Of a stretch of DNA of 64,000 nucleotides, positions 92-43,460 are shown in pieces. The DNA lies in NCBI GenBank assembly GCA_001600815.1, contig BCKZ01000021.1, positions 1 through 64,000 on the forward strand, in the 5' to 3' direction. Made by a program: the position numbers and the translations under genes. Every line of letters starts with the position of its first letter. The first letter of the stretch is position 1. Origin of the DNA: Alloascoidea hylecoeti (Eukaryota). Under the pieces are notes generated by a model. It was not told the origin of the DNA and made no database searches. It was given only the letters and a program-made list of their open reading frames with translations.

Positions 92-245
92 TGTTGAAAC
101 TATATTTAGAATTATATAATTATCTTATTTATATAGAATACATAGTAAAAAGAAATATAAAAAGAGAAGAAATCCTCCTCAGGATTTCTTTCTCTACCCT
201 TTATCTTATTCATATTCTTAACTATTAAAAGTTAAAAGTTTTATA
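92..245 (+). repeat. 3' LTR, family A (about 155 bp)
   Basis: Starts TGTTGAAAC after purine run GAGAA; similar copy at 1979-2144; contains TATAAAA and hairpin AAGAAATCCT-cctc-AGGATTTCTT. Confidence 0.8.
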
Positions 246-535
246 GTGAAGGCACGAAAAATGGTTTATTTATCAGAAATTTCTTACAAGAAATGAATCT
301 TAAAATGGAACCGTTGAAAGTAATTAATGATAACATGAGTGCCATATCATCAGCAGATCACTACACTTCAAAGAATAAGCATATAAACATAAAAGTATTC
401 TTTACACGTGAACTGGTAGATAAAAAGGAAATACAATTATTTTATGTACAATCAGAAAATAACTTGGCTGATACTTTAACCAAAAGTTTAGACAAAAATG
501 CCTTCTTTAAACTTACAAATCAAATTATTAACTAA
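246..535 (+). pseudogene. Copia RNase H 3' fragment, 5'-truncated at the LTR junction
   Basis: EGTKNGLFIRNFLQEM...KHINIKVFFTRELV...NLADTLTK; near-identical to 3478-3767. Confidence 0.9.
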
Positions 536-826
536 TTACTCTTTATCTATTAATTTTATTTTATTACTGTTTTTATCTTATCAAAATTATCTTACTGTTA
601 TTACTAATTTTATCTTATTACTATTTATCTTATTAAGAATGAAAAACTATTATCTTATTTTTATTACTACACAAAATTATCTTATTAAGAATTAAAAATT
701 ATTATCTTATTGTTATCTTTATTTTATTATTATTCAAAATTATCTTATTTTATCATTATCTTATTAACGCCCATTTTTCTTTAACTACATTTATATTATT
801 TAATCATTTTTGAATATTAAAAAGAA

Positions 827-994
827 TGTTAAAAAATAATATTCAACAATAAANTAAATATTAAATAAACTATATAGATATATAAGAAAAATGAATATAA
901 AAGAGACTAAATCCTCCTCAGGATTTAGATCTCTATCCTGTTTATCTTATTACCATCTCTTACTACTAAAAGTGAAAAATTTACAAAATTAATA
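827..994 (+). repeat. 3' LTR, family B (about 170 bp)
   Basis: TGTTAAAA...TTAATA after purine tract AAAAAGAA; near-identical copy at 4065-4236; hairpin CTAAATCCT-cctc-AGGATTTAG. Confidence 0.8.
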
Positions 995-1176
995 GCTGAT
1001 CACTACTGTAACCGATCGAAGCATATTGAAATTAAATGGTTCTTTACTAGGGAATTGGTTGAAAGAAAAGAAATTGAATTATTTTATATTCAAACGACCA
1101 AAACATTTCAGATCCTTTAACCAAAAATCTGAACAAAATACAATTCCAAAAACTTATGAATCCCCTTATTAATTAA
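995..1176 (+). pseudogene. Copia RNase H C-terminal fragment of a second family
   Basis: ADHYCNRSKHIEIKWFFTRELVERKEIELFYIQT, frameshift, then DPLTKNLNKIQFQKLMNPLIN*. Confidence 0.85.
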
Positions 1177-1379
1177 AAACTAAAATCATTTATCTTATTT
1201 CTTATATTTTACTCTTTATCTTATACTTATATTAAGCTTATTTTATCATTACTTATTTTTATCTTATACTTATGATATTTATATTTTGTTATTCTTCAAT
1301 CTATCTTATTAAAAGAATCTTATTTTAATTCAAACTTATACTGCTTATTTTATATTCTTATTAAAATTAAACAAAATTG

Positions 1380-1382
<3 letters not shown>

Positions 1383-1477
<95 letters not shown>

Positions 1478-1837
1478 NNNNNNNNNNNNNNNNNNNNNNN
1501 NNNNNNNNNNNNNNNNNNNNNNNNNNNNNNNNNNNNNNNNNNNNNNNNNNNNNNNNNNNNNNNNNNNNNNNNNNNNNNNNNNNNNNNNNNNNNNNNNNNN
1601 NNNNNNNNNNNNNNNNNNNNNNNNNNNNNNNNNNNNNNNNNNNNNNNNNNNNNNNNNNNNNNNNNNNNNNNNNNNNNNNNNNNNNNNNNNNNNNNNNNNN
1701 NNNNNNNNNNNNNNNNNNNNNNNNNNNNNNNNNNNNNNNNNNNNNNNNNNNNNNNNNNNNNNNNNNNNNNNNNNNNNNNNNNNNNNNNNNNNNNNNNNNN
1801 NNNNNNNNNNNNNNNNNNNNNNNNNNNNNNNNNNNNN

Positions 1838-1931
<94 letters not shown>
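1383..1931. repeat. (TTA)n microsatellite spanning an assembly gap (Ns at about 1478-1837)
   Basis: Perfect TTA repeats on both sides of the N run. Confidence 0.97.
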
Positions 1932-1933
<2 letters not shown>

Positions 1934-1978
1934 TTATTGATTACTTTACAATTTGCATATGCCTTAAAATACTGAGAA

Positions 1979-2144
1979 TGTTGAAACTATATTTAACAAC
2001 ATATGCAAATTAATAATATCTTAATTTATATAAGTTAGATAGTTAAAAAGTAATATAAAAAGAGAAGAAATCCACCTCAGGATTTCTTTCTCTATCCTTT
2101 ATCTAATTCATATTCTTAACTATTAAAAGTTAAAAGTTTTTTAA
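1979..2144 (+). repeat. 3' LTR, family A, second copy
   Basis: GAGAA-TGTTGAAACTATATTTA start and 3' part match 92-245. Confidence 0.8.
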
Positions 2145-3767
2145 GCCATGCAAATGGAATTACAATCACTAAGAGATCATGAAGTATATACTGAATCAAA
2201 AGAAAAGGTACCAGAAGAAGACATAATAAGATCAAAATGGGTATTTACATTAAAAAACATAAAAGGTCTACCTGTCTATAAAGCACGTCTGGTATGCAAG
2301 GGCTTTACTCAAATGAAGGGTATCAATTTTAATACCACATATTCACCAGTCTCTTCATATGACAGTTTTCGTACTCTTCTTGCCATTCACACTCAACATC
2401 CAGAACATGTAATGGTCCAAATAGATGTTAAAACAACTTTTCTACACTCTAAATTATCTGAAACTATCTTTGTTAAGCCACCCCCTGGTTCTCGTGCTAC
2501 CCCTGGCTCTCTTTGGAAATTACACAAAAGGGGTTTGAAACAATCTCCAGCCAATTTCTTCAACACATTCTCCAAAGTACTAAAACTTATTGGTCTCAAT
2601 CAATCTACCATTGAACCATGTACATTTTACAATACTCAGGTTAAGATGATCATCTATGTTGACGACGGTATGTTATTCGGTCCAAAAACCGAAATTGATC
2701 AAATTCTAAAAAGACTGAATATATATTTTGAACTGAGTGATTAAGATCTTGCTTAGTATAACTTTTTGATATTCATTCACTTTTTCTTTATCTAGTTTTT
2801 CAGATTTTTCTTCAAAAGGATCATAATCAGTTGGTAGAGGAGTCTTATGTTTAAAATTCAGTTGGATTTGATCATGTTCTTGTTTAACTTTTTCCAAATA
2901 GTCTTTCAAACTGAGTTTGATTGAACCTCCCTTCAATTTGAACAAGAACATGATCAAATCCAACTAAATTTTAAACATAAGACTCCTCTACCAATTGACT
3001 ATGATCCTTTTGAAGAAAAATCTGAAAAATTAAATGAAGAAAAATTGAATGAATATCAAAAAATTATGGATATTATGAATTATACAGTATCAACTGTTAG
3101 AATGGACATTGCTTATGCTAGCTCAATGCTATCTAGAAAACTTAAGAGTCCTACTAAGCAAGATCTTAAAATGAGTTATAGAGTTCTAAATTACTTAATC
3201 AATACAAAAGAATTTGGAATTACATACAAGAATAATCAAGAACTTAATCTACCAATAACACAAGAATTATTCATGAGAGAAAAGAAGCCTCAAAATTTAT
3301 CATTACCTGAAAATAATGAAATTAAAGTTGTGACTGATGCAAGCTGGGCTGATAATAAATCATATCACTCAAATTATGGTTATATGACCTTTATCAACAA
3401 TAATATGATAAGTTTTAAAGCTAAGAAAATAAGGAATATTACTCTCTCTACCAGTGAATCTGAGCTTGTTGGAATCTGTGAAGGTACAAAAAATGGTTTA
3501 TTTATCAGAAATTTCTTACAAGAAATGAATCTTAAAATGGAACCGTTGAAAGTAATTAATGATAACATGAGTGCCATATCATCAGCAGATCACTACACAT
3601 CAAAGAATAAGCATATAAACTTAAAAGTTTTTTTTACATGTGAGTTGGTAGATAAAAAGGAAATACAATTATTTTATGTACAATCAGAAAATAATTTGGC
3701 AGATCCTTTAACCAAGAATCTAGACAAGAATGCTTTTTTTAAACTTACAAATCAAATTATTAATTAA
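2145..3767 (+). pseudogene. Copia RT-RNase H remnant interrupted by an inverted segment (about 2744-2935)
   Basis: SKWVFTLK, YKARLVCKGFTQ, IYVDDG, then RMDIAYA, TDASWAD, LSTSESE, KHINLK. Confidence 0.92.
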
Positions 3768-4064
3768 TGATTCTTTATTTTAAAATCTACTGATCTTATC
3801 TTATCACTTTCCTTATCTTATTAGAATTATTTTATTACAAGAATTTTAAATTATTATCTTATTGCTATTACTCTTATATTTATAAATATTCAAAATTATC
3901 TTATTAAGAATTAAAAATTATTATCTTATTGTTATTACTCTTTTATATTTATTTTATTAATATTCAAAATTATCTTATTATATCATTATTTTATTAATGC
4001 CCATTTTTCTTTAACTACATCTATATTATTTAATTATTTTTTGAATGTCACATATTAAAAAGAA

Positions 4065-4236
4065 TGTTAAAAAATAATATTCAACAACAAAATAAATATT
4101 ATTAAATAAACTATATAGATATATAAGAAAAATGAATATAAAAAGGACTAAATCCTCCTCAGGATTTAGATCTCTATCCTGTTTATCTTATTACCATCTC
4201 TTACTACTAAAAAGTGAAAAATTTACAAAATTAATA
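4065..4236 (+). repeat. 3' LTR, family B, second copy
   Basis: Near-identical to 827-994. Confidence 0.8.
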
Positions 4237-5217
4237 CGGACAGCACTTTGTTGATATTTATGCACCCGTTTGTTCATATGAAACTTTAAGGTTTATTTTG
4301 AATTTCACCGTACAGAATGATTGGCAACTTTGTCAGTTTGATGTTTCAAATACTTTTTTGCATGGTGATATCGATTATGAAGTTTTCATGGAACCTCCTG
4401 ACGTATCTCATATTAACAAAGACAAATTATGGAAAGTCAAGAAAGCTGTTTATGGTCTGCGTCAAAGTCCTAATCTCTGGTTTGAAACTCTTGCTTCTAC
4501 TCTTAAGGAAATGGGGTTTACACAAAGTGATCTAGAACCCTGTCTATTTAGCAAAGTCGATAGTCTTATTCCAGTTTATGTGGATGACTCTTTCATTGCT
4601 GCTCCCAATAGTCAAATATTGAATGATATCAAATCAAGAATCAAGCAGAAGTTTCCTATTAAAGACCTTGGTTTCCCTAGCACCTTTTTAGGTATGTCAA
4701 TACCAGAACCTCTTCCGGTGGAATCAAACTATCTCTTAAGGATTTTCTTACTAAACTTGAAAGTGATTACCAAATTGTTAAAGGTAAACAGTTGCTTACT
4801 CCTTTAGTTAAAGGTTTCAATCCATATGAGTCCTCAAAACCTTTGGAAACTAAAGACATCAAAAAATATCAATCAACTGTTGGAGTTATCAATTTCATTT
4901 CAAATACCGCTAGACCTGATGTTTCTTTTGCTGCTTCACTTTCATCACGGCTTCTTGTTACTCCCAACGTTATTCATCTTAAGGTTGCTTATAGAGTACT
5001 CCAATATCTTGTTCAAAGTAAGGAAAAGGGAATCTGTTATGAAAAGAACTCACCATCTTTACCCTATAAAGACTTTAGATACTTAGACACAACCAAGAAC
5101 GTTTCTATTGTTGACTATCCTAGACTTGGCAAATACACTATCACTGCTGTTTCTGATTCTGATCATGCTGCTGACGTCAATGACCGTCTCAAACTGGTCT
5201 ATATTTTAAGAATTTAA
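4237..5217 (+). pseudogene. Copia RT remnant of a third family, frameshifted
   Basis: YAPVCSYET, QFDVSNTFLHG, YGLRQSP, VYVDDS, frameshift near 4695, then TARPDVSFA and SDSDHAAD. Confidence 0.9.
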
Positions 5218-5301
5218 TGGAAGAACTCAAGTTAGATGTGTCTTATATTGATTTAGTAAGTGATAACAGATCTGCGTTAATCCTGGTCGCACATAAGTAT
5301 A

Positions 5302-5560
5302 ATCATTCAATATTTGATTATTGGGAGCAGCAATGAAAGAGTCATCCACATAAACTGGAATAAGACTATCGACTTTGCTAAATAGACAGGGTTCTAGATC
5401 ACTTTGTGTAAACCCCATTTCCTTAAGAGTAGAAGCAAGATTTTCAAACCAGAGATTAGGACTTTGACGCAGACCATAAACAGCTTTCTTGACTTTCCAT
5501 AATCTGTCTTTGTTAATATGAGATCCGTCAGGAGGTTCCATGAAAACTTCATAATCGATA
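5302..5560 (-). repeat. Inverted duplicate of RT segment 4369-4627
   Basis: Minus-strand translation differs from the plus copy at only four residues. Confidence 0.93.
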
Positions 5561-5569
5561 GATCGTACA

Positions 5570-5840
5570 AGCAATCATGGATACATAACTTTTCTAGAAA
5601 ATAACATAATAAGCTGGAAAAGTCAAAAAATATCTTCAATAAATCTTAGTAGCTAATATATCAGCTAATAAAATAAATGTTATAAATGACAATCAATCTG
5701 CTTTAATTATGAGTGCTCATAGTACAGGTAGAAATAAGCACATTGAATTAAAGTTCTTTTTCACACGACAACTTATAAATAAAGCTTCACTATATCCAAA
5801 CACAACTACTTATATTATGAACAAAATTATGAATTAAAAT
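5570..5840 (+). pseudogene. Degenerate copia RNase H fragment
   Basis: SNHGYITFLENNIISWKSQK and GRNKHIELKFFFTRQLI separated by deletions; followed by a TATCTTA-rich UTR and an LTR-like relic at about 6150-6240. Confidence 0.75.
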
Positions 5841-6244
5841 TATTATTTATTTTTAAGAAATGTTATCTTAATTGGTTTTCTTATCTTATCAATCCTTTGT
5901 TTTATTTTATTTCATACTTATTTTTATCTTATAAAATCATTGTTATTTATTTAAAAATCTCTTAAAACTTATCTCAATATATTTTTGTTCTTTAAATGTT
6001 AATTTTACTCATCTTCTTATTTTAGTTATATTTATCTTAAAATACTTATTTTTCTTATATTATATCTTATCTCAAAATGCTTATCTCAAATATCTCAAAG
6101 TTTATGTTATTTATTCCATAACACTTATTTTATATTTATTAAAAAAAAAATTGTCAGATTTAGTTCTCTACCCTTTTTATCTTTTTCTTAATACAATTTT
6201 TATATTACTATATTTACAACTAATTACAACTTACAAATTTTCTC

Positions 6245-7340
6245 AATCTGTCACAGTTTGATGTCTCCACTGCCTTTCTGAATTCAGATATACATCACAC
6301 GGTTTCTGTTAGACCACCGGGTGTTCCTGTTTCTTCCGGAAAAGTCTGGCTATGTAATCGTACCATTTATGGACTTCGTCAAACGCCAAAAGAATGGTAT
6401 GAGACATTAAAATCTGCACTTGCCAAGTTTAATCTTATTTCAACAATTGTAGATCCGTGTTTCCTTTATAAACCCGGTACAAATATCAGGGTTCTTATCT
6501 ATGTAGACGATGGATTAATCTGTGCTAATTATTTGGATACTATTAAGATTCAGAACTGTCTATCAGAAGTATTCAAGGTTGAATATATAGGTTTTCCAAA
6601 AATGTTCTTAAGTATGGATTTTAGGGATAATACTTCAAATTCATTAAAAATATCTTTAGAATAGCACACCAAAAAGATACAAGAAGAAAAGAAGTTATAG
6701 GACATGAAGGTATATAAAAATCCATTACCTGATAATTATAATCCCAGAACAGAATCAAAACTATTAACAATAGACAAAATTAAGATTTACCAACAATTGA
6801 TTGGTATTCTAAACTATATGGTTAACACTGTTAGAGTAGATCTTTGTTTATACTTGCTCAAAAACTTGCTACTCCTACTGAATCTAATTTAAGAATGGCT
6901 TATAAACTTTTGAGGTATGCAACCTGGGCTGATGACACAGAAAATAGGAAATCACAATATGGATTTCTAATGTTGTTGAACAGAAATTTAATATCATTTA
7001 AATCAAAGAAATTGGATAACATAACTTTAAGCACTTGTGAATCTGAATTTGTGCATTATCAGATGCTCTTAAACATACATTAGGTATAAAGAATCTATTT
7101 ATGGAACTGGAAATGATAAATATAAAAATCAATGGAATTAATGACAATATTTCTGATCCACAAATTGGTTTAAGAAAAATCAAACACATTGATTTAAGAT
7201 ACTTATTTATATTAGAAAAAATAATATTAGGTATAATGACCTTATTTTATATCAACACAAATAATAACTTAAGTGACTTTTTAACTAAGCCATTAGGTCA
7301 TATCAGATTTCAAGAATTAACTTCCAACCTAATATATTAA
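6245..7340 (+). pseudogene. Heavily degenerate copia RT-RNase H (outermost element)
   Basis: QFDVSTAFL, IYGLRQTPKEW, LIYVDDG, TVRVDL, WADD, STCESE, KHIDLRY, NLSDFLTK in several frames. Confidence 0.88.
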
Positions 7341-7783
7341 ATGAATTATTATATTTAACTATGAGATTTAAAAATACTTTTATTTTATTCTACTTTGTTG
7401 TGGTTCCAATTCATTTTAAGCTACTCATTTTTTAAAGAATTATAACAAAATTTTCTAAATAAACTTTTCATTATATTAAAGGCATTTAAAACGAATTCAA
7501 ATTATTTTATTTATAAAAATTTATATCTACTTTTAAGCATTTCATATTATTTATTGTTATCTGCTATTATTTTATTTTACATACTGTTTTTATCTTTTAC
7601 ACTTTATGTTATTATCAAATCTTCAAATTAAAATCTTTCTTTTATTTTTATTAAAACCTTATTTTCATTAAACATATACTTTCAATGATTATTTTGAAGA
7701 AACAAATATTTATATTTAAAAACATATTTTATTTTATTAATTGTTAATTTCATTCATGTTTTATTATCAGAATTATAAGAGGA

Positions 7784-7946
7784 TGTTGAAATATTGTACC
7801 AAACAATGTTTCATAATTCACTAATAATACATAATAAGAGATACCAATTTTATATAGTTAGATAGCTAAATTTCAGTCTAAAAGAAGAGTCGAATCCTGA
7901 TTTGAATTTGTCACTTTACCCTTTTTATTTTTACTTTACTTCCACA
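7784..7946 (+). repeat. 3' LTR, family C, closing the cluster
   Basis: Polypurine tract AAGAGGA followed by TGTTGAAA...TCCACA; 3' part (TACCCTTTTTAT) resembles family A; right end approximate. Confidence 0.6.
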
Positions 7947-8499
7947 GTACTATTGTTAAGATTTGAAAAAGTATATGCGCCAAGCCTTTAAATCAAAAAA
8001 TATTTATATTATATGGAACTCTGAGTCTCTGAATTTTATGGTATAGACTAAAGAAGGCCATGCCTCAGTGTATATATGGGTAGAGTAGTTGGGTGTCCTA
8101 GTGGGTGTTATAAAACCGCCAATATTTTGTTGGGTAAGAAAAACTGCTAAATCCAAGTTTTACCCGACTGTTGTAGTGTACCACATAGTCGAGTGAAATT
8201 ACTATACCTGTACAATCTCCTGAGTCGCAACAATGTTAAAATGTAGAATATTTACTATCGTTTATAAAGATTGAGCTTAATAACAGATCTTACAATTGAA
8301 AGAGCGAATGAAAAAAAACACTTCAACGATATTTAAAACGAATAAACTAATCAATACGTACAAAAATAACTATTAAACTTCTCTTTAAAAAATTTAATAA
8401 AAAATATAACAATAATTGTTCGCATTCTTCTTTGTTTATGAGATCCAAGTAACATCGGCTATACTGTTTTTATACCAGTAATAACTCACTATAGATTAC

Positions 8500-11438: not shown

Positions 11439-13070
11439 ATGTTATTCTCCTCTTTGGCAAATGGGCTTTCACGGTCTATCTTAGGAACCCCAGTCTCTTC
11501 GCATCATTATTCGATTATTCATCCTAGAGTTCAAACTGTGATGAAACAGCTGGATCGAATTGCCCCTAGATTCTCTCTAAATGAAGGAAAAATAAGAATT
11601 ATTCAAGAACCTGCAGACTTTTATGATAACCTAACAACAAGAATTAGTCAAGCTGAAACCCGTATCTTCTTATCATCCCTATATATTGGAAAAGGTCAGG
11701 ATAACCTGGTAAGCTAGTTCTATTAAGAATTTTTAAGAGAGTTGTATACTAAATAAAGATTTGTAGGTCAATTGTCTTCGAGATGCGCTTAACAAAAAGC
11801 CAAATCTGAAACTTTTCATTTTGACTGATGCTTTACGAGGTACACGAGAAGCCCCGGGAAAATGTTCTGCTTCAGTATTAGCTTCTTTGACCAAAGAATT
11901 TGGAAACAGAGTTGATATTAGGATGTACCATACTCCTAATTTATCAGGCATTGAAAAGGTCATTCTTCCGAAAAGAATAAATGAAGGTTGGGGTTTACAA
12001 CATATGAAACTTTATGGATTTGATAACCGTATCATTCTTTCAGGTGCAAATTTATCAGCGGATTATTTCACCAATAGACAAGATAGGTATTATGAATTTG
12101 ATTCTGAAGAAATTACAAATTATTATTTCAACATACATAGAGCTATTTCTTCTCTTAGTTATAAATTACAGCCATCATCAATGAAACAGAAATTTAGATT
12201 AACCTGGCCTCATACAAATAACGCCTCTGAACCCCATCTCAATCAAGAACGGTTTCTATCCGATTCTTTTAGTACCCTGGAGCCCTTGATTAAACCTCCA
12301 ACATTGACCGAAGAGATTAAAAGTGTTGATGAAGACGACACTACTGCAACATTTGTATACCCCATTTCTCAATTCACCCCCTTACTTAAGCCTGATATTT
12401 CGACTGAGAAGCCAGCAATTCTCCGCATTCTGTCATTGCTTGACTCTAAAGATACGAGATGGTACTTCACTGCTGGATACTTCAATATTTATCCTCAATA
12501 CAAAGAGAAGTTACTTAAATCACAATCATCCGGACATGTGATAGCGGCTGCTCCTGAAGTATGTTATGTAATTTTACTATCTCTTCATATCTTTATATTA
12601 AATTCTAATACTTTTTTCTTTAGGCAAACGGCTTCTATAAATCGCATGGAATCTCGAAATATCTCCCACCAGCATATACGTATTTAGCAAAGGCATTCTT
12701 ACTTGATATACAAAAATACAAACGAACTGAAAACATAGGATTGTACGAATGGCAAAAGGGGATAGTAAATACACTAGGTGGTTGGTCATATCATGCCAAA
12801 GGAATTTGGATATGTAATCCAAATGAAAATAAGCCATGCTTAACAGTAATAGGATCTTCAAACTATACAAGAAGAGCATATTCTTTAGATTTGGAAACGA
12901 ATGCAGTGATCGTTACAAGAGACGAACAATTGAAGAATGCGATGAGATCAGAGGTTGATAATATTTTGAAAAATACCAAACAGATGGCAGTTGAAGATTA
13001 TGAAAAAGAGGATAGAAAGGTTTCATTGGGGGTTCAATTAGCTACTAAGATTGTGGGTGAAAAACTCTAG
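11439..13070 (+). CDS. PGS1: Phosphatidylglycerophosphate synthase (PLD family), 2 introns
   Basis: RIFLSSLYIG, DALRGTRE, GWGLQHMKLYGFD, SGANLSADYFTNRQDRY, WSYHAKGIW, IGSSNYTRRAYSLDLE. Confidence 0.95.
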
Positions 13071-16423: not shown

Positions 16424-19400
16424 CTAAACATATTCTGCTTTATTTTCAGAATCCCCAAACGATAGGGTATTAGTTATAGTATTGATTAGATAGCCATATG
16501 AATCGAGATCGGATTCATAGTCCGAATTTTCTTTTTGTTTGGGCGTTGTTTCTGTGTCTGTGAGATCCTGCTCTGGTTCTTTTTCTAAGACCTCTTCGTC
16601 TGTAGAGTCATCGTACTCAAGAATCTTGCCATATTTCCTTCTGGTACCTTTAGTACCTTGAAATTTGAAAGGTTTTGCTACTTCATCAAGCCTGCTTGGT
16701 GAATACCACTCAAGTAGATTTTTAGAGTCATTATTATTAGAATATTTATCTGGGCTATCTGCTGGTAGAATGCTGGACGAATAGTCTGTAACCCAATCGG
16801 AACTTGCATTTGACGAGCTTTTAACCATACCATAGGTTTCATCATATTCATTATCCGCATCAGTGTATAATGAAGTTCTTTCATAATTATTATTCATAAC
16901 AATTGAATCCATATTATTCGTATTATAACGATTGTTAGACACGGTGGGGAAGGAGGCTTCGTCTAATTGCAACCTCAGTTGAATTCTTGGCGATTCAACA
17001 TCTGCATAATCAACCGATAAAGAAGACAATGAACTAGATATAGAAGCTGAACCACCTTGAATATAGGTGTCATTACCATTTTCAGTTCTAACTACTGTTC
17101 GTTCAACATCGTCATCATCATAAGCTGATACATTTGGTGTTTCGAATACACCGCTCTCTATATCTCGTTCCATTTGGAGTCTGGATTCAAAATCGCTGTC
17201 GCTATCACTAGAGCTTAATATTTCAACATTGCTGCGTACCTCATCATCGTCATAACATATTGCTTTCTGTTGCTCATCCTCTGGTTCCTGCTCAAAATAT
17301 GGCATATCATCACATGATAATCTTGCAGTTAATGGAATATCTGTATCGCCATACGGCCTTGCATTTCTATGGACATCAACTGATAATCGGGTCTCACTTT
17401 TGATCGACATTGTTCTGTCATATGTGTTCGATGGAATAAGCGCATTCGGGTTAAAACCTGTACCCAATGAAGATCTTCTGTATGGCATTGAAGAAGGTTC
17501 AGGTGCCGAAACAAAGCGCCTACCAGTGTTTGGGGCAATTAACATTGAAGCGGTCCTGCTTTCCATTCCGTCGTTGTTCAATCTGCTAACCGAAAACGAG
17601 TCACGAGGGCTAGGATCCCTTGTACCACATATCTCATTTCTTTTTGAAAAATTCAAATCAGGCGTAGTAGCTTCGGTCACAAAGCTTTGTGTAGAAGAAG
17701 CACTGGCGTCACTAAAATGAGAAGACCCGCTCACGGGTATGGTATCAGGCGCAACTAAAGTGTCATCATTATTTTCTGAGGTTAATTTGACACTTGAATT
17801 CTTAGAAGAGAGCTCAGAAGGAGCACTAGTAACCCTTGTTTTCTTCTTCGGTTTCAACCTTAAGGAACTTGAAGAAGAAGCTATCAATTTTCTTTTGTGA
17901 TCTTCGTCCTCCATGTGCTTCTTAGTAAGTGAGAGAGAACGACTAAGAAATGATTTCACTCTGTACAACAAAGGTACAGAAGATTTTCGGTTTTCTCTAG
18001 GTGCAAAAGATTGTGTATGTCGTATAGGAGGTGGCATTGACACCGATGCTTCAATCGGTGAAAGTGAAGATTGAATACTTGATCTCTCCCCCGGAGTAGG
18101 AGACAAGATAGATGAAACTCCCGAGAACCTTATGCTAAGATCCATTGATTCAGATGGATACCTTACAGACATAGTCCTCAAGTTGATCTTTTTTCTGGAT
18201 TCTTGCATTAATTTAGTTTGAAACTGGTGGTCTAACTTCTCAATATAGGTAAGCATTTCTGTTACTAATAGTTGATTTCCTTTTATAATATCACCCACAA
18301 TCTTTGAATTTTCTGGAGATAAAAATAATCCATAAGCCTTTGAAATTTCCTTTACCAAAATCGAAGCAAATTCACTTTTCAAAGCAATTTCACGGAAAAT
18401 AGTGCCTGCTTTTGTTAAGCCTAAAATCTTTACCTTCTCTTCCTCCTCATCTTTATTATTGATTTTATTTGAGACAGTTGAGCGCTTATCAGTAGTAAAT
18501 GAAACTGAATAGCAAGCGAACAATTCATTTTCATCTAAGAAACTCATATCAATATCTACATTAAGGAGTAATGCAAAAGGGCATTTTCTTTCTTCCTTCA
18601 AGTATACATCATACTCATGAGCCGTAGAATATAATTTCACTTCTTCTTCCTCTTCTTCTTTACCATAAGAGTCCTCATCATCTAGTTGCCCAGTCATTTG
18701 AAATAAATGCAAGGGTTCAGTTTTACTTAAAACTTTTGCTTTTGTGATTAACTCTACAAATTTTCTGGTATCATTATATTTATTGACATTTCTAAATTTG
18801 TACAAACGTAGATGCTCTTTACATCCTCCATCTGATTGAATTCCTTGATCTTTAACGAATAATTGTAAGCATGTGCCATTGTTGTACGAAGCCGCAAAAA
18901 CGTCCTTAATTGAGGCCCAAGCATCTACTTGCAAAGACGGTAAATTTTTCAACGGTTTTTCAGACGTTAACGAATGCATTAAAATGTCAGCGATAGATGG
19001 CTTATGAATCGTTGGCGTATAATTATCATCGACTTTTAGGATTAATATGTGATCACTGAATAAAATGAGAACGTCAAGCGTTGGAGAGACTTTTGATGAT
19101 ACTGGCGAGGAGTTGGTAGCAGATAAAAGGGAATATTTCAAGTTAACAGCATCCACTATTGTTACTACACGTCTAGAAACCCACCCATATTGTAATTCTT
19201 CGGGCCAACCAGTTGCCAATTCAGTCAATATTTTTCCCGTGGGTGTGACTACGCGCCTGTGATATGGTTTCAGGGATGCCTGTGCAAAATCGTCTATCGT
19301 ACCCACCGCCGATTTATAATAAGAATTCACTAACTCAATTTCATCTTCTAGCCATTCTTTCTGTTTCATTAGTCTATCGATTACCAACTTTAGCCTTGCT

Positions 19401-20521
19401 AAATTTAATGAGCTATGTATTATTGTTTCAATGTGGGCTGGGCTATAATAAGATACTGTGTTTGAGTCATCTGTTAAGTAAGGCAATAGCATATCGTATA
19501 TTTCATTCAATTTAATGGTGAAATTTTTTGTGGCAGCTTCATGTCTCATATATGCTTTGTAAAAATAAGGAATTGTAGAGCCACATGCTTTTATTACCTC
19601 GAATGCATCACGCTTATTTGCAGATTGTAAGGATTCCAAGAAGATGCAATTAATCCTAGTGACTTCATCAATTGTTGGAGGGAAAACAGAGTTTAGTCTT
19701 GAAAGAGAAATGAACGGTATTTCATTATTCATAGCACGAGCTCTTAATGGGACGACAAAGTCCTGTAAAAAAGCCACTAAACTATGCGTGAAGTTAGTTT
19801 GAATATCTAGCAGTTCATTGCATATGGGCTTAACAACTTCGGTGTCCTCTTCATATCCATTCAAAGAAGATGAATCTGATGAGGTCGATGGAGGGTGGTA
19901 TATTTTTTCAGTTGGTTCTGGAGAGTATTCAGTTAGAGGGTCGAAAAGTTGTTCTAATTGTTGACCCATAAGATACACAAGGGCGTTATTCTGTTTAATC
20001 ACAGCAGGGTCGTTCTTATAGATAACATCCAACAGCAATGAGTTTGCAAACTTCTCTGAGAAGAAGCCAAATTGAGAGCAGATATTGCATACAACCTTTG
20101 AAATATTGGGAACCTGAGATTTTCTGAGAGTAGCGGCGAATTCTCCGGCCCAAGTTTCATCAAATGTAGGAGGGTGACCAGTACTAGTTCGTGTTATGGA
20201 CTGCTCGAGAAGGGAAGATCTAAGGGAAGAGTTCATGGTTGCATAGCATCTCAGGATGGCGATGGCAAGGGCCCGCCGTTCACAGTCCATCTCCATGTCC
20301 GGAGGAAGGTTTCGGACAGCAGGGAAATACCTAGATCTCTCCGTTAAGGTCATGTTGCGAAAATGGGATGCCCCATGGTAGGACACCAGGCACACGCTGG
20401 CTGTGGAGGCCTGGGAATCTGTGTCATATAGCAGCACACATAGGTTTCCAAGAACGGGGTCGGAGCCGGAGTATACAGCACCGTTCTGCTCTAGAGATTC
20501 AGGCACAGTTGGAGAACTCAT
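16424..20521 (-). CDS. BUD3: Bud site selection protein Bud3 (DH/PH Cdc42 GEF with long disordered tail)
   Basis: GQQLEQLFDPLTEYSPEPTEKIY, FPPTIDEVTRINCIF, TPTGKILTELATGWPEELQYGW; divergently transcribed from NFS1. Confidence 0.93.
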   Translation of the reverse strand: MSSPTVPESLEQNGAVYSGSDPVLGNLCVLLYDTDSQASTASVCLVSYHGASHFRNMTLTERSRYFPAVRNLPPDMEMDCERRALAIAILRCYATMNSSLRSSLLEQSITRTSTGHPPTFDETWAGEFAATLRKSQVPNISKVVCNICSQFGFFSEKFANSLLLDVIYKNDPAVIKQNNALVYLMGQQLEQLFDPLTEYSPEPTEKIYHPPSTSSDSSSLNGYEEDTEVVKPICNELLDIQTNFTHSLVAFLQDFVVPLRARAMNNEIPFISLSRLNSVFPPTIDEVTRINCIFLESLQSANKRDAFEVIKACGSTIPYFYKAYMRHEAATKNFTIKLNEIYDMLLPYLTDDSNTVSYYSPAHIETIIHSSLNLARLKLVIDRLMKQKEWLEDEIELVNSYYKSAVGTIDDFAQASLKPYHRRVVTPTGKILTELATGWPEELQYGWVSRRVVTIVDAVNLKYSLLSATNSSPVSSKVSPTLDVLILFSDHILILKVDDNYTPTIHKPSIADILMHSLTSEKPLKNLPSLQVDAWASIKDVFAASYNNGTCLQLFVKDQGIQSDGGCKEHLRLYKFRNVNKYNDTRKFVELITKAKVLSKTEPLHLFQMTGQLDDEDSYGKEEEEEEVKLYSTAHEYDVYLKEERKCPFALLLNVDIDMSFLDENELFACYSVSFTTDKRSTVSNKINNKDEEEEKVKILGLTKAGTIFREIALKSEFASILVKEISKAYGLFLSPENSKIVGDIIKGNQLLVTEMLTYIEKLDHQFQTKLMQESRKKINLRTMSVRYPSESMDLSIRFSGVSSILSPTPGERSSIQSSLSPIEASVSMPPPIRHTQSFAPRENRKSSVPLLYRVKSFLSRSLSLTKKHMEDEDHKRKLIASSSSSLRLKPKKKTRVTSAPSELSSKNSSVKLTSENNDDTLVAPDTIPVSGSSHFSDASASSTQSFVTEATTPDLNFSKRNEICGTRDPSPRDSFSVSRLNNDGMESRTASMLIAPNTGRRFVSAPEPSSMPYRRSSLGTGFNPNALIPSNTYDRTMSIKSETRLSVDVHRNARPYGDTDIPLTARLSCDDMPYFEQEPEDEQQKAICYDDDEVRSNVEILSSSDSDSDFESRLQMERDIESGVFETPNVSAYDDDDVERTVVRTENGNDTYIQGGSASISSSLSSLSVDYADVESPRIQLRLQLDEASFPTVSNNRYNTNNMDSIVMNNNYERTSLYTDADNEYDETYGMVKSSSNASSDWVTDYSSSILPADSPDKYSNNNDSKNLLEWYSPSRLDEVAKPFKFQGTKGTRRKYGKILEYDDSTDEEVLEKEPEQDLTDTETTPKQKENSDYESDLDSYGYLINTITNTLSFGDSENKAEYV

Positions 20522-20721
20522 CACCAACTTTTGGAGGTTTAAAATTGTAGATATTACAACACCAAACGTTTGGAATGTAAACACTCTTCTGCGTACTATA
20601 CAGTCCGGGACACATTATACACACACCCATTCTCCGGCTCAGAAACCATTTAGTAAATCATATTCTACTGAAAGTAGCATTCTTTTACATTTTCCAACCA
20701 ATACTTTTTTCTGTGAAAAGA

Positions 20722-22353
20722 ATGATGAGACAATACATATCACTACAAAGGCTAGCATGCGCAAAGCCCCTTCAATGGTACCTGACCCGTTCATTGTCAA
20801 CGGTTCCTCACAGACAAGTGTTTGCTTCTCATAATCTATCTTCATCTGCTGTCGAACAGACGAAGGCAAAAAGTGAAAAATTGCTTGAAAAATTGTCAAA
20901 GGTTACTCCTCCCCCTGGCTCCTCTGTCTCACTGAACCAAGCGAAGCATCCCGGTCAAGGCTCAAGACCGATTTATTTGGATATGCAAGCTACCACTCCA
21001 ATGGACCCAAGGGTTTTGGACTATATTTTACAGTTTTATACTGGCCTTTACGGAAATCCACATTCAAGAACACATGCCTATGGTTGGGAAACTGATAAAG
21101 CAATAGAGGAAGCAAGAAGTCATGTTGCTTCTCTCATCAATGCTGACCCGAAGGAAATTATTTTTACATCCGGTGCAACTGAATCCAACAATCTATGTAT
21201 TAAAGGTGTTCCCCGTTTCTATAGCAAGACAAAGAAGCATGTTATAACAACACAAACCGAACACAAATGTGTACTGGATTCTGCCCGCCATTTACAGAAT
21301 GAGGGATTTGATGTCACCTATTTGCCGGTGAATAACAAAGGTTTAATTTCATTGGAGGAACTGGAGAAGGCAATTAGACCAGATACAGCCCTTGTCTCCG
21401 TTATGGCCGTTAACAACGAAATTGGCGTAATTCAACCCATTGAAGAAATTGGAAAGATCTGTCGTAAACACAAGATCTTTTTCCATACTGACTGTGCCCA
21501 GGCTTTTGGTAAAATACCTTTAGATGTCAATAAAATGAATATTGATTTGATGAGTATCTCTGGCCATAAAATTTATGGTCCAAAGGGTGTTGGTGCTTGC
21601 TATGTTAGAAGAAGACCGAGAGTCAGACTAGAACCAATCTTAAGTGGTGGTGGTCAGGAAAGAGGTCTAAGAAGTGGAACCGTACCGGCTCCTCTTGTTG
21701 CTGGTCTTGGCGAAGCTTGTAGAATAGCAAAAGAAGAAATGGAGGTGAGTTATTGTTATATTTTTCGATTTTGTGATGATGATTCATCTTGCTATGATTT
21801 AGATGTCATATTGGATCTCTCTAATCTCTTGAGTCCGTCATGATGACTATACTTTTGCAGGGGGCTGAACAATTATTTTTATGAATAACTACTTTTTTAT
21901 AATGTCAGATGAACTAACATTTTTTAATAGTATGACTCAAAACATATCAAGCGCCTATCTGACAAGCTACTGAATGGCCTTTTGTCGATGGAACATACAA
22001 TTAGGAATGGTGATCCAGAGCACTCATACCCAGGTTGTGTTAATGTTTCTTTTGCTTATGTTGAAGGGGAGTCATTAATCATGGCCTTGAATGATATTGC
22101 ATTAAGTTCTGGTTCTGCGTGCACTTCTGCTTCACTAGAACCATCATACGTTCTACATGCTTTAGGATCTGATGATGCTTTGGCGCACTCTAGTATTCGT
22201 TTTGGGATTGGTCGATTTACCACTGAAGAAGAAGTAGATTATGTTTTAGAAGCTATTAAACAGAGGGTTGACTTTTTGAGAGAATTATCACCACTTTGGG
22301 AAATGGTTCAAGAGGGAATCGATTTAAATTCAATTGAATGGTCGGGGCATTAA
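20722..22353 (+). CDS. NFS1: Cysteine desulfurase Nfs1; one intron at 21745-21930
   Basis: [45 protein letters not shown]...CTAAC...TAG intron joins EEME to YDSKH. Confidence 0.98.
21771..21872 (+). ncRNA. Intronic box C/D snoRNA, predicted U6 snRNA 2'-O-methylation guide
   Basis: Box C ATGATGA 21776-21782, C' ATGATGA 21840-21846, box D CTGA 21865-21868, terminal stem TTGT/ACAA, guide CTTTTGCAGGGG 21852-21863. Confidence 0.72.
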
Positions 22354-24189: not shown

Positions 24190-25893
24190 CTAAAAGCCAT
24201 GCTCGCCAGCTTCGCATACTTTAATAGACCTACCCCATTCGCTATTTAAAACCTGCTTGGCAGTAATTCTTCTAGATGGAACAGGATCCAAAATAGAGTA
24301 AATGACATTCCTACACCTTGATCTCTTCAGTTGCTCTATAGGCTCATAACCGCCCTCGCTTTTCCGGCCCTCAAGATAACGTTTATAAAATTCATCCTCA
24401 TCAGCAATTGCAACATGCCATAATTGACGGCCAGTTCTCATAGCCATGTAAATAACACCACAAGACCAAACGTCAACTGGACGAGGGTCAAATTCATCGT
24501 CTGTGTATTCTTCCGGGGAAATATAAGGTGCAGATCCACAAACCCCAGACGATTTATGAACCTCTTTTTCCCAGGCAATTCTAAAGCACTCACTATTACC
24601 AAAATCAGTGACTTTCAGAGATCCGTTAGCAGATAACAATAGATTTTCAGGCTTCAAATCACGATGAACAACCCCCATTTCATGCATATACATTACAGCT
24701 TTCATTAATTGTTTGAAAAAGCAGTCAGCTTCGACGGCTTCTAATTTACCAGCAGAAACAATTAAACTGTATAAATCTCCACCTGTACAAAACTCCATGA
24801 CTTGACAAAAATCACCCTTTGCATCCTTTAACAAATCAAGGGTTCTGATTATATTCGGATGGTGTAAGCTAGAGCTAATGCAAAATTCACTTGTGAGTCT
24901 TCGATTATATTTTTTCTCATTTTCTTGTGGTTTCTTTCTGAATTCTTTAACTGCAAATAGTTGTTCATCGCCATCGACATGTTTATGAGATACACGAACA
25001 ACACCGAATGCACCTCTACCAATTTCTTCCTGGCAACGACCATACTTTTCAGCAAAAGATCGAGGATCTAGAATGGTTGTTCCCTCTTTTCCATCGGGCA
25101 TATCTTGACCAATAATACCATTAATTTGGGGGGAATTATTTTCTATGTTATTTGAATCCTGGTAAAACCCTGGCAGAGCTGAAACAGCACCATCACGAAG
25201 CTTCTTAGCACCTAAAAAATCTTTTATTATACTACCGAATCTTTCTTGTCTCCTTCTATTTTTAAGGTAATGTTCATGCTTACCATTTTCGAGCAATTGA
25301 AATCTCGGTACACCCTTATCTCTTGCAGAGGCCGTAGAACTACTCTGAGACCGAGATGAAGAAGTAGAAGCAGATGATTCAGATCTTTTAACAGTAGGAG
25401 GACCCAGGAGATTTTTGATTTCTTGATGTGTTGACCCCTTTTCCTCTGGGTGTTTAATGGATTTGACTGATTTTGTACGATTTGAGGCATGGTGTTGCTG
25501 TTGCTGTTGAATTTGAGACACTTCACCTTCTTCTGGGAAAACCGAAAGACTTATAGTGGATTTGACACTTTTATAACTTCTTTCGCTTGAGGTACTATTT
25601 GACCTATTTTTTCGTGAACGATCACGAGAAGGTTGTCGTTGGAACTCCACAGCTTTTGAGGCTGAAACATTTGTGCTTAGAGTGGTTGAGGTAGAACCAC
25701 CAACAAGTATTTTCGTGAGTTTACTTATAGTAGATCTCCTTGGTGCCGTATCTTTATGATCCTTAGACTGAGTGGATTGGGCGGGACGCTCAGTTTTTGG
25801 AATAACACCTTTTACATCCGGGCGAAACGATGCATCTTTAACTGAATTTTTCGCTGACGTTGTGGAAGGGGGAAGAGCCGAGCTTGGACCCAT
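24190..25893 (-). CDS. SAT4: Hal4/Sat4-family Ser/Thr kinase
   Basis: KYGRCQEEIGRGAFGVV, RLTSEFCISSSLHHPNII, DFGNSECFRIAWE, EFDPRPVDVWS, VCEAGEHGF. Confidence 0.9.
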   Translation of the reverse strand: MGPSSALPPSTTSAKNSVKDASFRPDVKGVIPKTERPAQSTQSKDHKDTAPRRSTISKLTKILVGGSTSTTLSTNVSASKAVEFQRQPSRDRSRKNRSNSTSSERSYKSVKSTISLSVFPEEGEVSQIQQQQQHHASNRTKSVKSIKHPEEKGSTHQEIKNLLGPPTVKRSESSASTSSSRSQSSSTASARDKGVPRFQLLENGKHEHYLKNRRRQERFGSIIKDFLGAKKLRDGAVSALPGFYQDSNNIENNSPQINGIIGQDMPDGKEGTTILDPRSFAEKYGRCQEEIGRGAFGVVRVSHKHVDGDEQLFAVKEFRKKPQENEKKYNRRLTSEFCISSSLHHPNIIRTLDLLKDAKGDFCQVMEFCTGGDLYSLIVSAGKLEAVEADCFFKQLMKAVMYMHEMGVVHRDLKPENLLLSANGSLKVTDFGNSECFRIAWEKEVHKSSGVCGSAPYISPEEYTDDEFDPRPVDVWSCGVIYMAMRTGRQLWHVAIADEDEFYKRYLEGRKSEGGYEPIEQLKRSRCRNVIYSILDPVPSRRITAKQVLNSEWGRSIKVCEAGEHGF

Positions 25894-26397
25894 ATATTGT
25901 TATTGGAAGAACAAACGAGCAAAAAGCAATAACTGGAAGACTTCTAGCCTTACTATGTGATAAAACAAAGGTGCGGGAACAATGGACTCTTCGTGGTAAT
26001 ACCCAAGAGAATAAGTAGTAGTAGAAAGGGAGGAATAAAAGCTTTTTAAGCAGAAGTTTCGGGGATCAGGCCGAGAGATGCCAGGCAGCAGTGGCTACAA
26101 AAATTCGGACCCGGGACGGCAGAAACGAGAAATGAGGAGGTTTGGGGGTTGGAAAGGGCCACTTAAAATAGTAAGACAAGAAGCAGAGGAGGAGAAAGGA
26201 GGAAGAGCAGAAATTCGAAGAATATTATATTAATATAATTTTAAGCGGAGGAGGCAATTGGTGATGTCATAAAATGTTTTGTTCCTGTTTTTGGCCTGTA
26301 ATGCAGCTTTGTATTGGTGCACGTGATGCCATATTTATATCTATAGCTATAAGTTTATAAAACATAATATACAAGCAATAAATATATTCTGTAGTAT

Positions 26398-42800: not shown

Positions 42801-43460
42801 GTTGATCAAGGATAATATTGGCTTTAAGAATGATATTAATGCATCCTTATTTGCCCTCATAGATAAAAAGGTCTACAAAAAGAGTAAGTATAAGAATCTT
42901 GATATTTTAAGAATTCTACTTTCTAATTGTTTTATCTAGTTGGCAAGGACGAACCGAATACTTTCAAATATGTAGTGAAATCGACCGTGGTAGATGGCAT
43001 GACCCATAGATTCATTCCGGTTGAGGTAAATATGAATTTAAAGTATAAGCGGTTAGGGGAAAATCAACCGGAAAATAGTTTTGATATTCCGGCTTGGAAT
43101 ATTTCTCTCCCAATTTCAGATCCTCGAGCTCTCATTCACGTGAAGGAAATTAATGATGATGGTTCGATTGAAATACATTATTTCATAGAAAACCCAACGA
43201 TGAGAATATTTAATTTTTCTGCTACCCTATTTCCCATCGAAAATTTTACTATGATTAGAGGCCTTAAACAACAATCCTTCCCCATTTTACCCTTTTCTCA
43301 CCAGGAGCTTTCATACACTTTCCAACCTCAAGCAACTGGATGGCTCAAGATTCCATTGGTAAAAATATTTGATTTACATTACAATGTAACATTACCAATT
43401 ATTGTTGCTACCGAAGGAATTAAGTCAGATACAAACAAAAATTTATACATTCATATCTAG
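39895..43460 (+). CDS. TRAPPC11/Gryzun/Foie gras TRAPPIII subunit; one intron at about 42884-42939
   Basis: MDYFPEEYLSHLCPLVLVQGL, HSDLSP...LYPDGIISSKW, GWEVRYNFKLACIAEFKQE, RWKEARLLLD, IENPTMRIFNF. Confidence 0.85.

What the first reader, a model, noticed from the sequence alone, without database searches (positions are those of the whole stretch)
21771..21872. Hidden box C/D snoRNA in the NFS1 intron that appears to guide U6 snRNA 2'-O-methylation
Seen: this 186-nt intron is two to three times longer than the other introns in the window. It has a C/D layout: stem TTGT, one spacer nt, box C ATGATGA, internal C' ATGATGA, box D CTGA, stem ACAA, ending about 45 nt before the CTAAC branch point. 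No clear D' box was found. The 12-nt element before box D, CTTTTGCAGGGG, is the reverse complement of CCCCUGCAAAAG. Established (from recall): the U6 internal stem-loop reads CCCCUGCAUAAG in S. cerevisiae, CCCCUGCACAAG in S. pombe and CCCCUGCGCAAG in human, so the only mismatch to the two yeast sequences is at the variable loop base. The D+5 rule (G21860) selects the last C of CCCC, equivalent to human U6 C63, a known 2'-O-methylated site; S. cerevisiae U6 is not known to carry 2'-O-methyls. A second segment, TTCATCTT (21783-21790), can pair with the adjacent AGGAUGAA of yeast-type U6. Inference: this budding yeast retains a U6-methylation system, perhaps with a LARP7-type cofactor, hosted in an Fe-S gene rather than a ribosome-biogenesis gene.
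Basis: partly seen in the sequence, partly recalled or inferred. Interest (0 to 1): 0.9.

Follow-up and report, generated by a model that had tools for sequence, protein, structure and literature searches.

The report
Intron snoRNA aimed at U6 stem-loop
An intron of this budding yeast's NFS1 gene carries a textbook small guide RNA whose guide sequence matches the catalytic stem-loop of the spliceosome's U6 RNA, so this yeast probably still methylates U6 at a site for which no fungal guide has been described, although neither the RNA nor this yeast's own U6 could be examined.

Summary
The window's only canonical box C/D layout lies at 21771-21872, inside a verified phase-0 NFS1 intron (21745-21930). 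It has perfect C, C' and D boxes and a 4-bp terminal stem. About 0.045 such layouts are expected per 64 kb. The intron is about three times longer than eight other short introns of 55-66 nt.

The 13 nt before box D pair with the U6 internal stem-loop as printed for S. cerevisiae. There is one U-U mismatch at a loop base that differs between the U6 sequences I saw. D+5 falls on the last C of CCCC. That position is Cm57 in S. pombe, whose guide is unknown, and Cm63 in human.

A new point emerged. NFS1 exon-1 ORFs of many other fungi read through into an intron at the same codon. Several of those tails encode a box C followed by the D' guide of Neurospora snoRNA CD4, which targets 18S-Cm49. So this is an old snoRNA host intron. 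Here the 18S guide looks decayed and the D guide points at U6.

Not shown: a stable RNA, this yeast's own U6, its rRNA as a rival target, guide conservation, or any LARP7-type cofactor. Verdict: probably a real snoRNA (about 0.85) and probably a U6 guide (about 0.7). It is a new member of a known kind. This scan has noted other fungal snRNA guides, including a U5 guide in this same genome.

The parts
20722..21744 (+). NFS1 exon 1 (341 codons, from the ATG)
   Evidence: Residues 74-341 align to human NFS1 chain 5usr_A residues 18-285, E 2e-130.
21745..21930 (+). Phase-0 spliceosomal intron, 186 nt, GTGAGT...ACTAAC...TAG
   Evidence: The exon translations abut at 5usr_A residues 285/286. The sequence was read.
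21771..21872 (+). Predicted box C/D snoRNA, about 102 nt
   Evidence: It is the only strict C/D layout in the window, with 0.045 expected. No Rfam family matches it.
21771..21774 (+). 5' half of the terminal stem (TTGT), followed by one unpaired G (21775)
   Evidence: It is complementary to ACAA 21869-72. One unpaired base before box C is the K-turn register as I recall it.
21776..21782 (+). Box C, ATGATGA
   Evidence: a perfect RUGAUGA.
21783..21790 (+). Post-C segment TTCATCTT; possible accessory pairing to U6 GAUGAA / AGGAUGAA
   Evidence: Complementarity was worked out by eye against the S. cerevisiae U6 oligo. The role is inferred.
21798..21828 (+). D' guide region, apparently a decayed relative of the 18S-Cm49 guide of N. 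crassa CD4; no target found
   Evidence: A by-eye comparison with Nc CD4. Only short blocks are shared (UUAGA, CAU, UGG).
21829..21832 (+). Candidate box D' (TTGA), 7 nt before C'
   Evidence: The box and the bases after it (UGA-GUCC-GU) resemble CUGA-AGUCCCGU of Nc CD4, judged by eye.
21840..21846 (+). Box C', ATGATGA
21852..21864 (+). D guide CTTTTGCAGGGGG, antisense to U6 stem-loop UCCCCUGCA(N)AAG; G21860 is the D+5 base
21865..21868 (+). Box D, CTGA
21869..21872 (+). 3' half of the terminal stem (ACAA)
21913..21918 (+). Branch site ACTAAC (branch A 21917), 45 nt after the snoRNA
21931..22353 (+). NFS1 exon 2 (140 codons plus stop)
   Evidence: Residues 1-140 align to 5usr_A residues 286-426.

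Best explanation
The NFS1 intron encodes a canonical box C/D snoRNA of about 102 nt (21771-21872). It would be released from the spliced, debranched intron by exonucleolytic trimming up to the snoRNP. This is inferred from how intronic snoRNAs are made in general.

Its D guide (21852-21864) pairs with the 5' strand and loop of the U6 internal stem-loop, U65-G77 in S. cerevisiae numbering. Fibrillarin (Nop1) would then 2'-O-methylate the last C of the CCCC run. That base is C69 in S. cerevisiae numbering, C57 in S. pombe and C63 in human.

The snoRNA probably descends from the CD4-type snoRNA that other Ascomycota carry in the same intron. In this lineage its old D' guide for 18S-C49 has decayed. 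The box-C-proximal TTCATC may add accessory pairing to the 3' strand of the stem-loop.

Shown: the motifs, their rarity, the intron, the complementarity, and the shared host intron. Inferred: expression, processing, the methylation itself, descent from CD4, and accessory pairing.
For: - The C/D layout with K-turn register occurs once in the window against 0.045 expected. With an internal C' required, 0 of 200 simulations had a hit.
- It lies on the sense strand of a verified intron, 26 nt after the 5' splice site and 45 nt before the branch A.
- The intron is 186 nt, against 55-66 nt for 8 other short introns.
- The D guide pairs with the S. cerevisiae U6 stem-loop (oligo printed in PMC3177201) at 12 of 13 positions, counting one G-U pair. 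The duplex is -20.1 kcal/mol, against -7.4 +/- 2.6 for shuffles, and 0 of 2000 shuffles reached it. Against a U6 with a GCAAA loop (L022) it is -23.3 kcal/mol, again 0 of 2000.
- D+5 lands on a position methylated in S. pombe (C57, guide not found; passages of PMC10484740) and in human (C63).
- 28 of 106 NFS1-like proteins with the junction motif read through into an intron at this codon. Of the 27 non-self tails, 12 are compatible with TGATGA and 5 with the 14-nt Nc CD4 D' guide plus box.
- Nc CD4 was cloned and seen on northern blots (Table 1 of PMC2780460).
- The closest relative's exon-1 ORF, P0241 (68% identity over 99% of exon 1), ends ...GDDDLIY. That is compatible with the same TGATGATGA at a similar offset (by eye).
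Against: - No RNA data exist for this organism, so no stable 100-nt RNA is shown.
- Its own U6 was not seen. If the loop base is U, as in S. cerevisiae, there is a U-U mismatch 5 bp from the target.
- Its rRNAs, tRNAs and other snRNAs were not available, so a better target cannot be excluded.
- The guide could not be checked in any relative. Read-through ORFs stop before it.
- The D guide of Nc CD4 is not antisense to U6.
- No Rfam U6-guide family matches, even at E up to 10.
- S. cerevisiae U6 carries no 2'-O-methyl groups.
- Close relatives P0232, P0215 and P0195 have no intron here.
- The terminal stem is only 4 bp, and D' is degenerate.
Confidence: 0.68

Rival explanations
1. It is a real box C/D snoRNA, but its working target is something other than U6, such as rRNA, a tRNA or another RNA, or it is an orphan. 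On this reading the U6 match is a coincidence.
For: - The same intron hosts an rRNA guide (18S-Cm49) in other fungi.
- This yeast's rRNA was never screened.
- Against general-type U6 genes the D guide is less exceptional: 21 and 17 of 2000 shuffles reach its energy.
- Across a scan of very many windows, a few chance matches to U6 are expected.
Against: - A 12-mer match with up to 1 mismatch to a roughly 110-nt RNA has a chance of about 2e-4 per guide (my arithmetic). Here it also puts D+5 on one of the few known U6 Nm sites.
- None of the 64 N. crassa rRNA guide duplexes listed resembles this guide.
- A partial rDNA of an unrelated eukaryote (L026) gave no good duplex. This is a weak test.
Confidence: 0.17
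2. It is a decaying relic of the ancestral CD4-type snoRNA. It may still be processed, but it no longer guides any modification.
For: - The D' guide no longer matches the 18S-C49 site. Only 8 bp remain, and they sit far from D' (by eye).
- Several close relatives have lost the intron altogether.
- S. cerevisiae has neither the intron nor U6 Nm.
Against: - Boxes C, C' and D are all perfect, and the terminal stem is intact.
- A relic would not be expected to hold a 13-nt complement of a conserved RNA exactly at the D-guide position.
Confidence: 0.08
3. It is not a snoRNA at all. The motifs are a chance arrangement in a long AT-rich intron, or serve as an intron structure or splicing-regulatory element.
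For: - There is no expression data and no Rfam match.
- The minimum-free-energy fold pairs box C with TTCATC.
Against: - 0.045 layouts are expected per window, and none of 200 simulations had a layout with C'.
- A snoRNA is conserved in the same intron of other fungi.
Confidence: 0.05

Closest known systems
Vertebrate SNORD94 (U94, U6 C62) and SNORD67 (MBII/HBII-166, U6 C60)
   Same: They are intron-encoded box C/D guides antisense to the 5' strand of the U6 internal stem-loop. They are listed among the LARP7-associated U6 guides (passage of PMC11863803; PMC5855946).
   Different: They target the neighbouring cytidines, not the C63-equivalent. No sequence homology was detectable: no Rfam hit at E up to 10. 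The host gene differs.
S. pombe snoZ30 (mgU6-47, U6 A41) and sno530 (U6 A64)
   Same: They are fungal snoRNAs that guide U6 2'-O-methylation, shown by knockouts (passages of PMC10484740).
   Different: They target other positions, and sno530 is non-canonical. The guide for S. pombe C55-C57 was sought and not found. The present RNA is canonical and addresses the C57-equivalent.
Neurospora crassa snoRNA CD4 (EU780928)
   Same: It is a box C/D snoRNA with box C AUGAUGA. A CD4-type D' guide is encoded in the read-through tails of NFS1 exon-1 ORFs of other fungi at the same intron position. The bases after D' are similar, judged by eye.
   Different: CD4 guides 18S-Cm49 through its D' guide, and its D guide has no assigned target and is not antisense to U6. 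Here the 18S guide is not recognisable as functional and the D guide matches U6. I did not show that N. crassa's own CD4 lies in its NFS1 gene.
snR53 family (CD_11), D' guide predicted for U6-45 outside Saccharomycetaceae
   Same: It is a computational prediction that fungi other than Saccharomycetaceae methylate U6 through a C/D snoRNA (passage of PMC5824354).
   Different: It is a different snoRNA and a different U6 position (the ACAGAGA / AGC region, not the stem-loop).

Membership tests
Box C/D methylation-guide snoRNA | Box C (RUGAUGA) near the 5' end and box D (CUGA) near the 3' end | tested here: met
   ATGATGA 21776-82 and CTGA 21865-68.
Box C/D methylation-guide snoRNA | A terminal stem that brings C and D together in K-turn register | tested here: met
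   TTGT and ACAA pair, with one unpaired base before C and none after D. The layout occurs once in the window against 0.045 expected. The register rule is recalled.
Box C/D methylation-guide snoRNA | An internal C'/D' pair | tested here: inconclusive
   C' is perfect (21840-46). D' is only the degenerate TTGA at 21829-32, supported by a by-eye likeness to Nc CD4.
Box C/D methylation-guide snoRNA | A guide of 10 nt or more directly upstream of D or D', complementary to a stable RNA, with the target at +5 | tested here: met
   13 nt pair with the S. cerevisiae U6 stem-loop, with one mismatch and one G-U pair. This yeast's own U6 was not seen.
Box C/D methylation-guide snoRNA | A stable RNA of about 70-120 nt bound by Snu13, Nop56, Nop58 and Nop1 | not testable with these tools
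   No RNA data were available for this organism.
Box C/D methylation-guide snoRNA | Conservation of the boxes in relatives | tested here: inconclusive
   This was testable only at peptide level. Box-C-compatible codons occur in 12 of 27 read-through tails and, by eye, in P0241 and P0340. D and the D guide are not visible in these tails.
U6-specific methylation guides (SNORD7/8/9/10/67/94, snoZ30, sno530) | Sequence homology to a described family | tested here: not met
   There is no Rfam match at gathering score or at E up to 10 over 21600-22100.
U6-specific methylation guides (SNORD7/8/9/10/67/94, snoZ30, sno530) | An antisense element that places a known U6 Nm site at +5 | tested here: met
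   D+5 falls on the last C of CCCC, which is S. pombe C57 and human C63. The numbering was derived from the oligo and the site lists.
U6-specific methylation guides (SNORD7/8/9/10/67/94, snoZ30, sno530) | U6 is in fact methylated at that site, and the methylation depends on the snoRNA | not testable with these tools
   This needs RiboMeth-seq or primer extension in this species.
U6-specific methylation guides (SNORD7/8/9/10/67/94, snoZ30, sno530) | Dependence on a LARP7/Pof8 (and Bmc1) cofactor | not testable with these tools
   No whole genome is held for this window.
Nc CD4 snoRNA family | A D' guide complementary to 18S around C49 | tested here: not met
   Only UUAGAUGU (21799-21806) can pair with AUGUCUAA of the N. 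crassa target, and it lies 23 nt from D' (by eye).
Nc CD4 snoRNA family | Location in the phase-0 NFS1 intron after ...EEME | tested here: met
   The position is the same as in the fungi whose read-through tails encode the CD4 guide: P0154, P0184, P0207, P0211 and P0212.

The most novel reading that the evidence does not exclude
This RNA is the long-missing type of guide for the cytidine cluster of the U6 internal stem-loop in fungi (S. pombe Cm55-57, human Cm63). It arose by guide turnover inside an ancient NFS1-intron snoRNA that once served 18S-Cm49. On this reading, U6 stem-loop methylation persisted within the budding yeasts and was lost only on the way to Saccharomyces. Its layout (C', a spacer of 5-8 nt, antisense stem-loop, one base, CUGA) would give a template for finding the unidentified guides in S. 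pombe and other fungi.
Probability: 0.5. Interest if true: 0.72.

Novelty: new member of a known kind. Interest (0 to 1): 0.6.

Why it matters
U6 forms the catalytic centre of the spliceosome. Its stem-loop methylations are conserved from S. pombe to humans. In human cells, Cm62 and Cm63 are needed for installing m2G72 (passages of PMC13109388).

Budding yeast, the main splicing model, lacks these marks, and in fission yeast the guide for the stem-loop cytidines has not been found. A canonical guide for exactly that position in a budding yeast would do three things:
- show that the loss is recent within Saccharomycotina;
- offer a yeast in which the mark can be removed simply by replacing one intron;
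- give a search template for the missing guides elsewhere.

The shared host intron, with different guides in different lineages, is also a clean example of snoRNA target turnover.

Tried and rejected
- **Whole genome:** none is held for this window.
- **Sequencing runs:** no RNA holder is listed. Four DNA holders from three studies, all possible sources of this DNA, hold the intron.
- **This yeast's own U6:** It is not in the window.
- **U6 stem-loop pattern scans:**
  - Viral contigs gave 0 hits.
  - Prokaryote genome contigs gave 18 loci. By eye, 16 are eukaryotic U6 genes sitting in bacterial MAGs, all with GCGCA, GCGUA or GCACA loops.
  - The metagenome scan for a GCAAA loop gave 4 loci. 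Three are Rfam U6 (72-77 bits), but they are flanked by GA repeats and have no T-run, so they may be pseudogenes.
- **snoRNA guide pattern:** viral contigs gave 0 hits.
- **Eukaryotic LSU rRNA in contaminated MAGs:** the search gave no answer twice. A 5.8S search gave one partial rDNA of an unrelated eukaryote, and the guide had no good duplex on it. This is too weak to count either way.
- **Literature:**
  - No paper links NFS1 with an intronic snoRNA: the listing of 8 papers held nothing relevant.
  - The searches found no report of U6 Nm or a U6 stem-loop guide in Saccharomycotina.
  - A search for printed stem-loop sequences found only the S. cerevisiae form.
  - Supplements of PMC5824354 are not held. 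Those of PMC10484740 and PMC10581693 held no U6 sequences, so species U6 alignments there could not be seen.
  - Three older papers were not held.
- **Earlier notes of this scan:** none near this place, and no look-alike stretches.
- **Ideas considered and rejected:**
  - TTCATCTTGCT plus ATGA as a true D' guide for the A70-equivalent. Its +5 base falls on a G-U pair, one base off.
  - A 9-bp pairing with one bulge between 21814-22 and U6 A49-C58. About 0.1-0.2 such matches are expected by chance, and it is not at +5.
  - The tRNA-Cys anticodon loop (UGCAAA) as target. The flanks cannot form an anticodon stem (from recall).
- **Missing control:** a script control for the motif-compatibility test was lost when the script machine failed. 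My estimate is that the peptide AWLS[DE] is expected about 2e-4 times in roughly 800 tail residues.

Full report
**What is there.** The window is from a budding yeast. NFS1 lies next to LEU2. The Leu2 protein is 77-82% identical to many proteins, and all of the named ones are from Saccharomycotina species; none is closer than 82%. No whole genome is held.

NFS1 is split by one intron, 21745-21930. It runs GTGAGT ... ACTAAC (branch A at 21917) ... TAG. The exon-1 translation aligns to human NFS1 chain 5usr_A up to residue 285, and the exon-2 translation starts at residue 286. The intron borders are therefore exact, and the intron is in phase 0.

**The C/D layout.**
- TTGT 21771-74, then one unpaired G.
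- Box C ATGATGA 21776-82.
- Box C' ATGATGA 21840-46.
- Box D CTGA 21865-68.
- ACAA 21869-72.

One free base before box C and none after box D is the register of a K-turn as I recall it.

A strict scan for this layout found exactly this one site on both strands of the 64-kb window. The mean in 200 Markov-1 simulations was 0.045, and with an internal TGATGA also required no simulation had a hit.

Eight other candidate introns that join open frames of at least 50 codons are 55-66 nt long. The 186-nt intron is thus about three times the norm, and it would be near the norm without the 102-nt insert. The element ends 45 nt before the branch A. Rfam has no match at gathering score in the whole window or at E up to 10 around the intron.

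**The guide.** The 13 nt before box D (21852-64) are unique in the window. I compared them with the S. cerevisiae U6 segment printed in PMC3177201 (passage seen).
- They pair with U65-G77: one G-U pair, eleven Watson-Crick pairs, and one U-U mismatch at loop base 74.
- After a single A-G mismatch, three more pairs are possible.
- The duplex energy is -20.1 kcal/mol, against -7.4 +/- 2.6 for shuffled guides. None of 2000 shuffles reached it.
- Against a U6-like sequence with a GCAAA loop (L022) it is -23.3 kcal/mol, again with 0 of 2000 shuffles.
- Against two general-type U6 genes the signal is weaker: 21 and 17 of 2000 shuffles reach the observed energy.

The fifth base before D, G21860, pairs with the last C of CCCC. 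I numbered from the ACAGAGA box in the oligo and from the site lists. On that numbering the target is C69 in S. cerevisiae, C57 in S. pombe and C63 in human.

What is known about that site:
- Human U6 is methylated at A47, A53, G54, C60, C62, C63, A70 and C77 (passages of PMC8599867 and PMC5855946).
- S. pombe shows evidence for Cm57, and its authors could not find any guide for C55-C57 (passages of PMC10484740).
- S. cerevisiae U6 has no 2'-O-methyl groups.

**A shared host intron.** The protein collection holds ORFs called on raw contigs, so an exon-1 ORF runs on into the intron until the first stop codon.
- Among 120 NFS1 hits, 106 carried the junction motif. Of these, 28 (the window's own included) continue with V[S/R/G/W/C]..., which is GT... 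read in frame.
- Of the 27 non-self tails, 12 are compatible with TGATGA.
- Five tails (P0154, P0184, P0207, P0211, P0212) are compatible with the 14-nt D' guide plus box of Neurospora snoRNA CD4, lying 20-25 nt after that box C. Two of them fit the 17-nt form.
- By eye, P0145, P0281, P0285 (a variant) and P0332 carry the same guide in other frames or with one change.

CD4 was cloned and seen on northern blots. It is assigned to 18S-Cm49 (Table 1 and Additional files 1 and 4 of PMC2780460).

A second search, ranked on the whole of exon 1, listed 120 hits, of which I fetched 21. Twenty have read-through tails. The closest relative, P0241 (68% identity over 99% of exon 1), ends ...ETGDDDLIY. That is compatible with the same TGATGATGA as here, at a similar offset. 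P0340, a Saccharomyces-like sequence, has ...VYDED. Most of the other tails stop too early to tell.

Three close relatives (P0232, P0215, P0195) have no intron at this place.

The script control for chance compatibility was lost when the script machine failed. My estimate is about 2e-4 expected matches to AWLS[DE] in the roughly 800 tail residues.

**Relation to CD4.** By eye, this RNA and Nc CD4 share:
- box C AUGAUGA;
- short collinear blocks in the D' guide region;
- a box (TTGA here, CUGA there) followed by GUCC-GU.

That is why I place D' at 21829-32. The 18S-C49 guide itself is not intact here. Only 21799-21806 can pair with the N. crassa target, and that stretch is far from D'. Conversely, the D guide of Nc CD4 is not antisense to U6.

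The simplest reading is one old intronic snoRNA whose guides have turned over. This descent is inferred, not shown.

**Mechanism and odds.** I take it to be a canonical intron-derived snoRNP that opens the U6 stem-loop by pairing with its 5' strand and loop, and methylates the C69-equivalent.
- TTCATC (21783-88) is complementary to GAUGAA, directly next to the main duplex. It may give accessory pairing of the kind mentioned in PMC10484740. It could equally be chance, or pair with box C itself.
- I put about 0.85 on a real snoRNA and about 0.7 on U6 as its target.

**What is missing.**
- This yeast's own U6, so the loop base is unknown.
- Its rRNA and tRNAs, which are needed to exclude a better target.
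- Any RNA evidence.
- The guide sequence in relatives.
- Any test for Pof8/LARP7 or Bmc1.

**Comparison with what is known, and novelty.** U6 guides are known in vertebrates (SNORD7, 8, 9, 10, 67, 94) and in S. pombe (snoZ30, sno530). A U6-45 guide has been predicted for fungi outside Saccharomycetaceae.

My searches found no report of a fungal guide for the stem-loop cytidines, or of an NFS1-intron snoRNA.

Earlier notes of this scan describe a U5-loop guide in this same genome (e1-7784099) and a two-guide U6 snoRNA in another fungus (e1-7567703). Both are untested here, but both fit a picture in which snRNA methylation guides survive in non-Saccharomyces fungi.

I file this as a new member of a known kind.

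Noticed in passing
window 1-8000: GC content is only 21-28%, against 31-40% in the rest of the window. This could be a centromere-like or otherwise gene-poor AT-rich region.
   Followed up: no
window, e.g. 12559-12623, 42884-42939, 57739-57685 (-), 56815-56760 (-), 37320-37255 (-), 15839-15783 (-), 10877-10819 (-), 10680-10620 (-): Eight candidate introns of 55-66 nt join long open frames. This yeast seems rich in very short introns for a member of Saccharomycotina.
   Followed up: partly
window 21814-21822: GAUCUCUCU can pair with U6 A49-C58 (the ACAGAGA box to just before the AGC triad) if U54 bulges out. It is not at +5 of any box, and about 0.1-0.2 such matches are expected by chance.
   Followed up: partly
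L001-L018 (genome contigs): By eye, sixteen of 18 pattern hits in bacterial MAG records are complete eukaryotic U6 genes (Rfam confirmed the two tested, L001 and L006). One Woeseiaceae MAG contig carries three identical copies. These MAGs hold eukaryotic contamination.
   Followed up: partly
L020-L022 (about 352-456) and L019: Metagenome contigs hold U6-like sequences with a GCAAA stem-loop loop. They are embedded in long GA repeats and lack a T-run terminator. L019 has only the 3' half of U6 after an unrelated stretch. These may be pseudogenes or an intron-split U6.
   Followed up: partly
proteins P0161, P0171, P0176, P0198 (JGI): Four NFS1 exon-1 ORFs are identical up to a run of P and K codons in the intron, and then differ in frame. 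They look like length variants of an A-run in one intron. Between them they read the same box C region in two frames (RRDDD and AVMMI).
   Followed up: no
window 16424-20614 (-) and 24190-25899 (-): A 1396-codon open frame with no obvious name lies upstream of NFS1, and a protein-kinase-like open frame lies beyond LEU2. Neither was examined.
   Followed up: no
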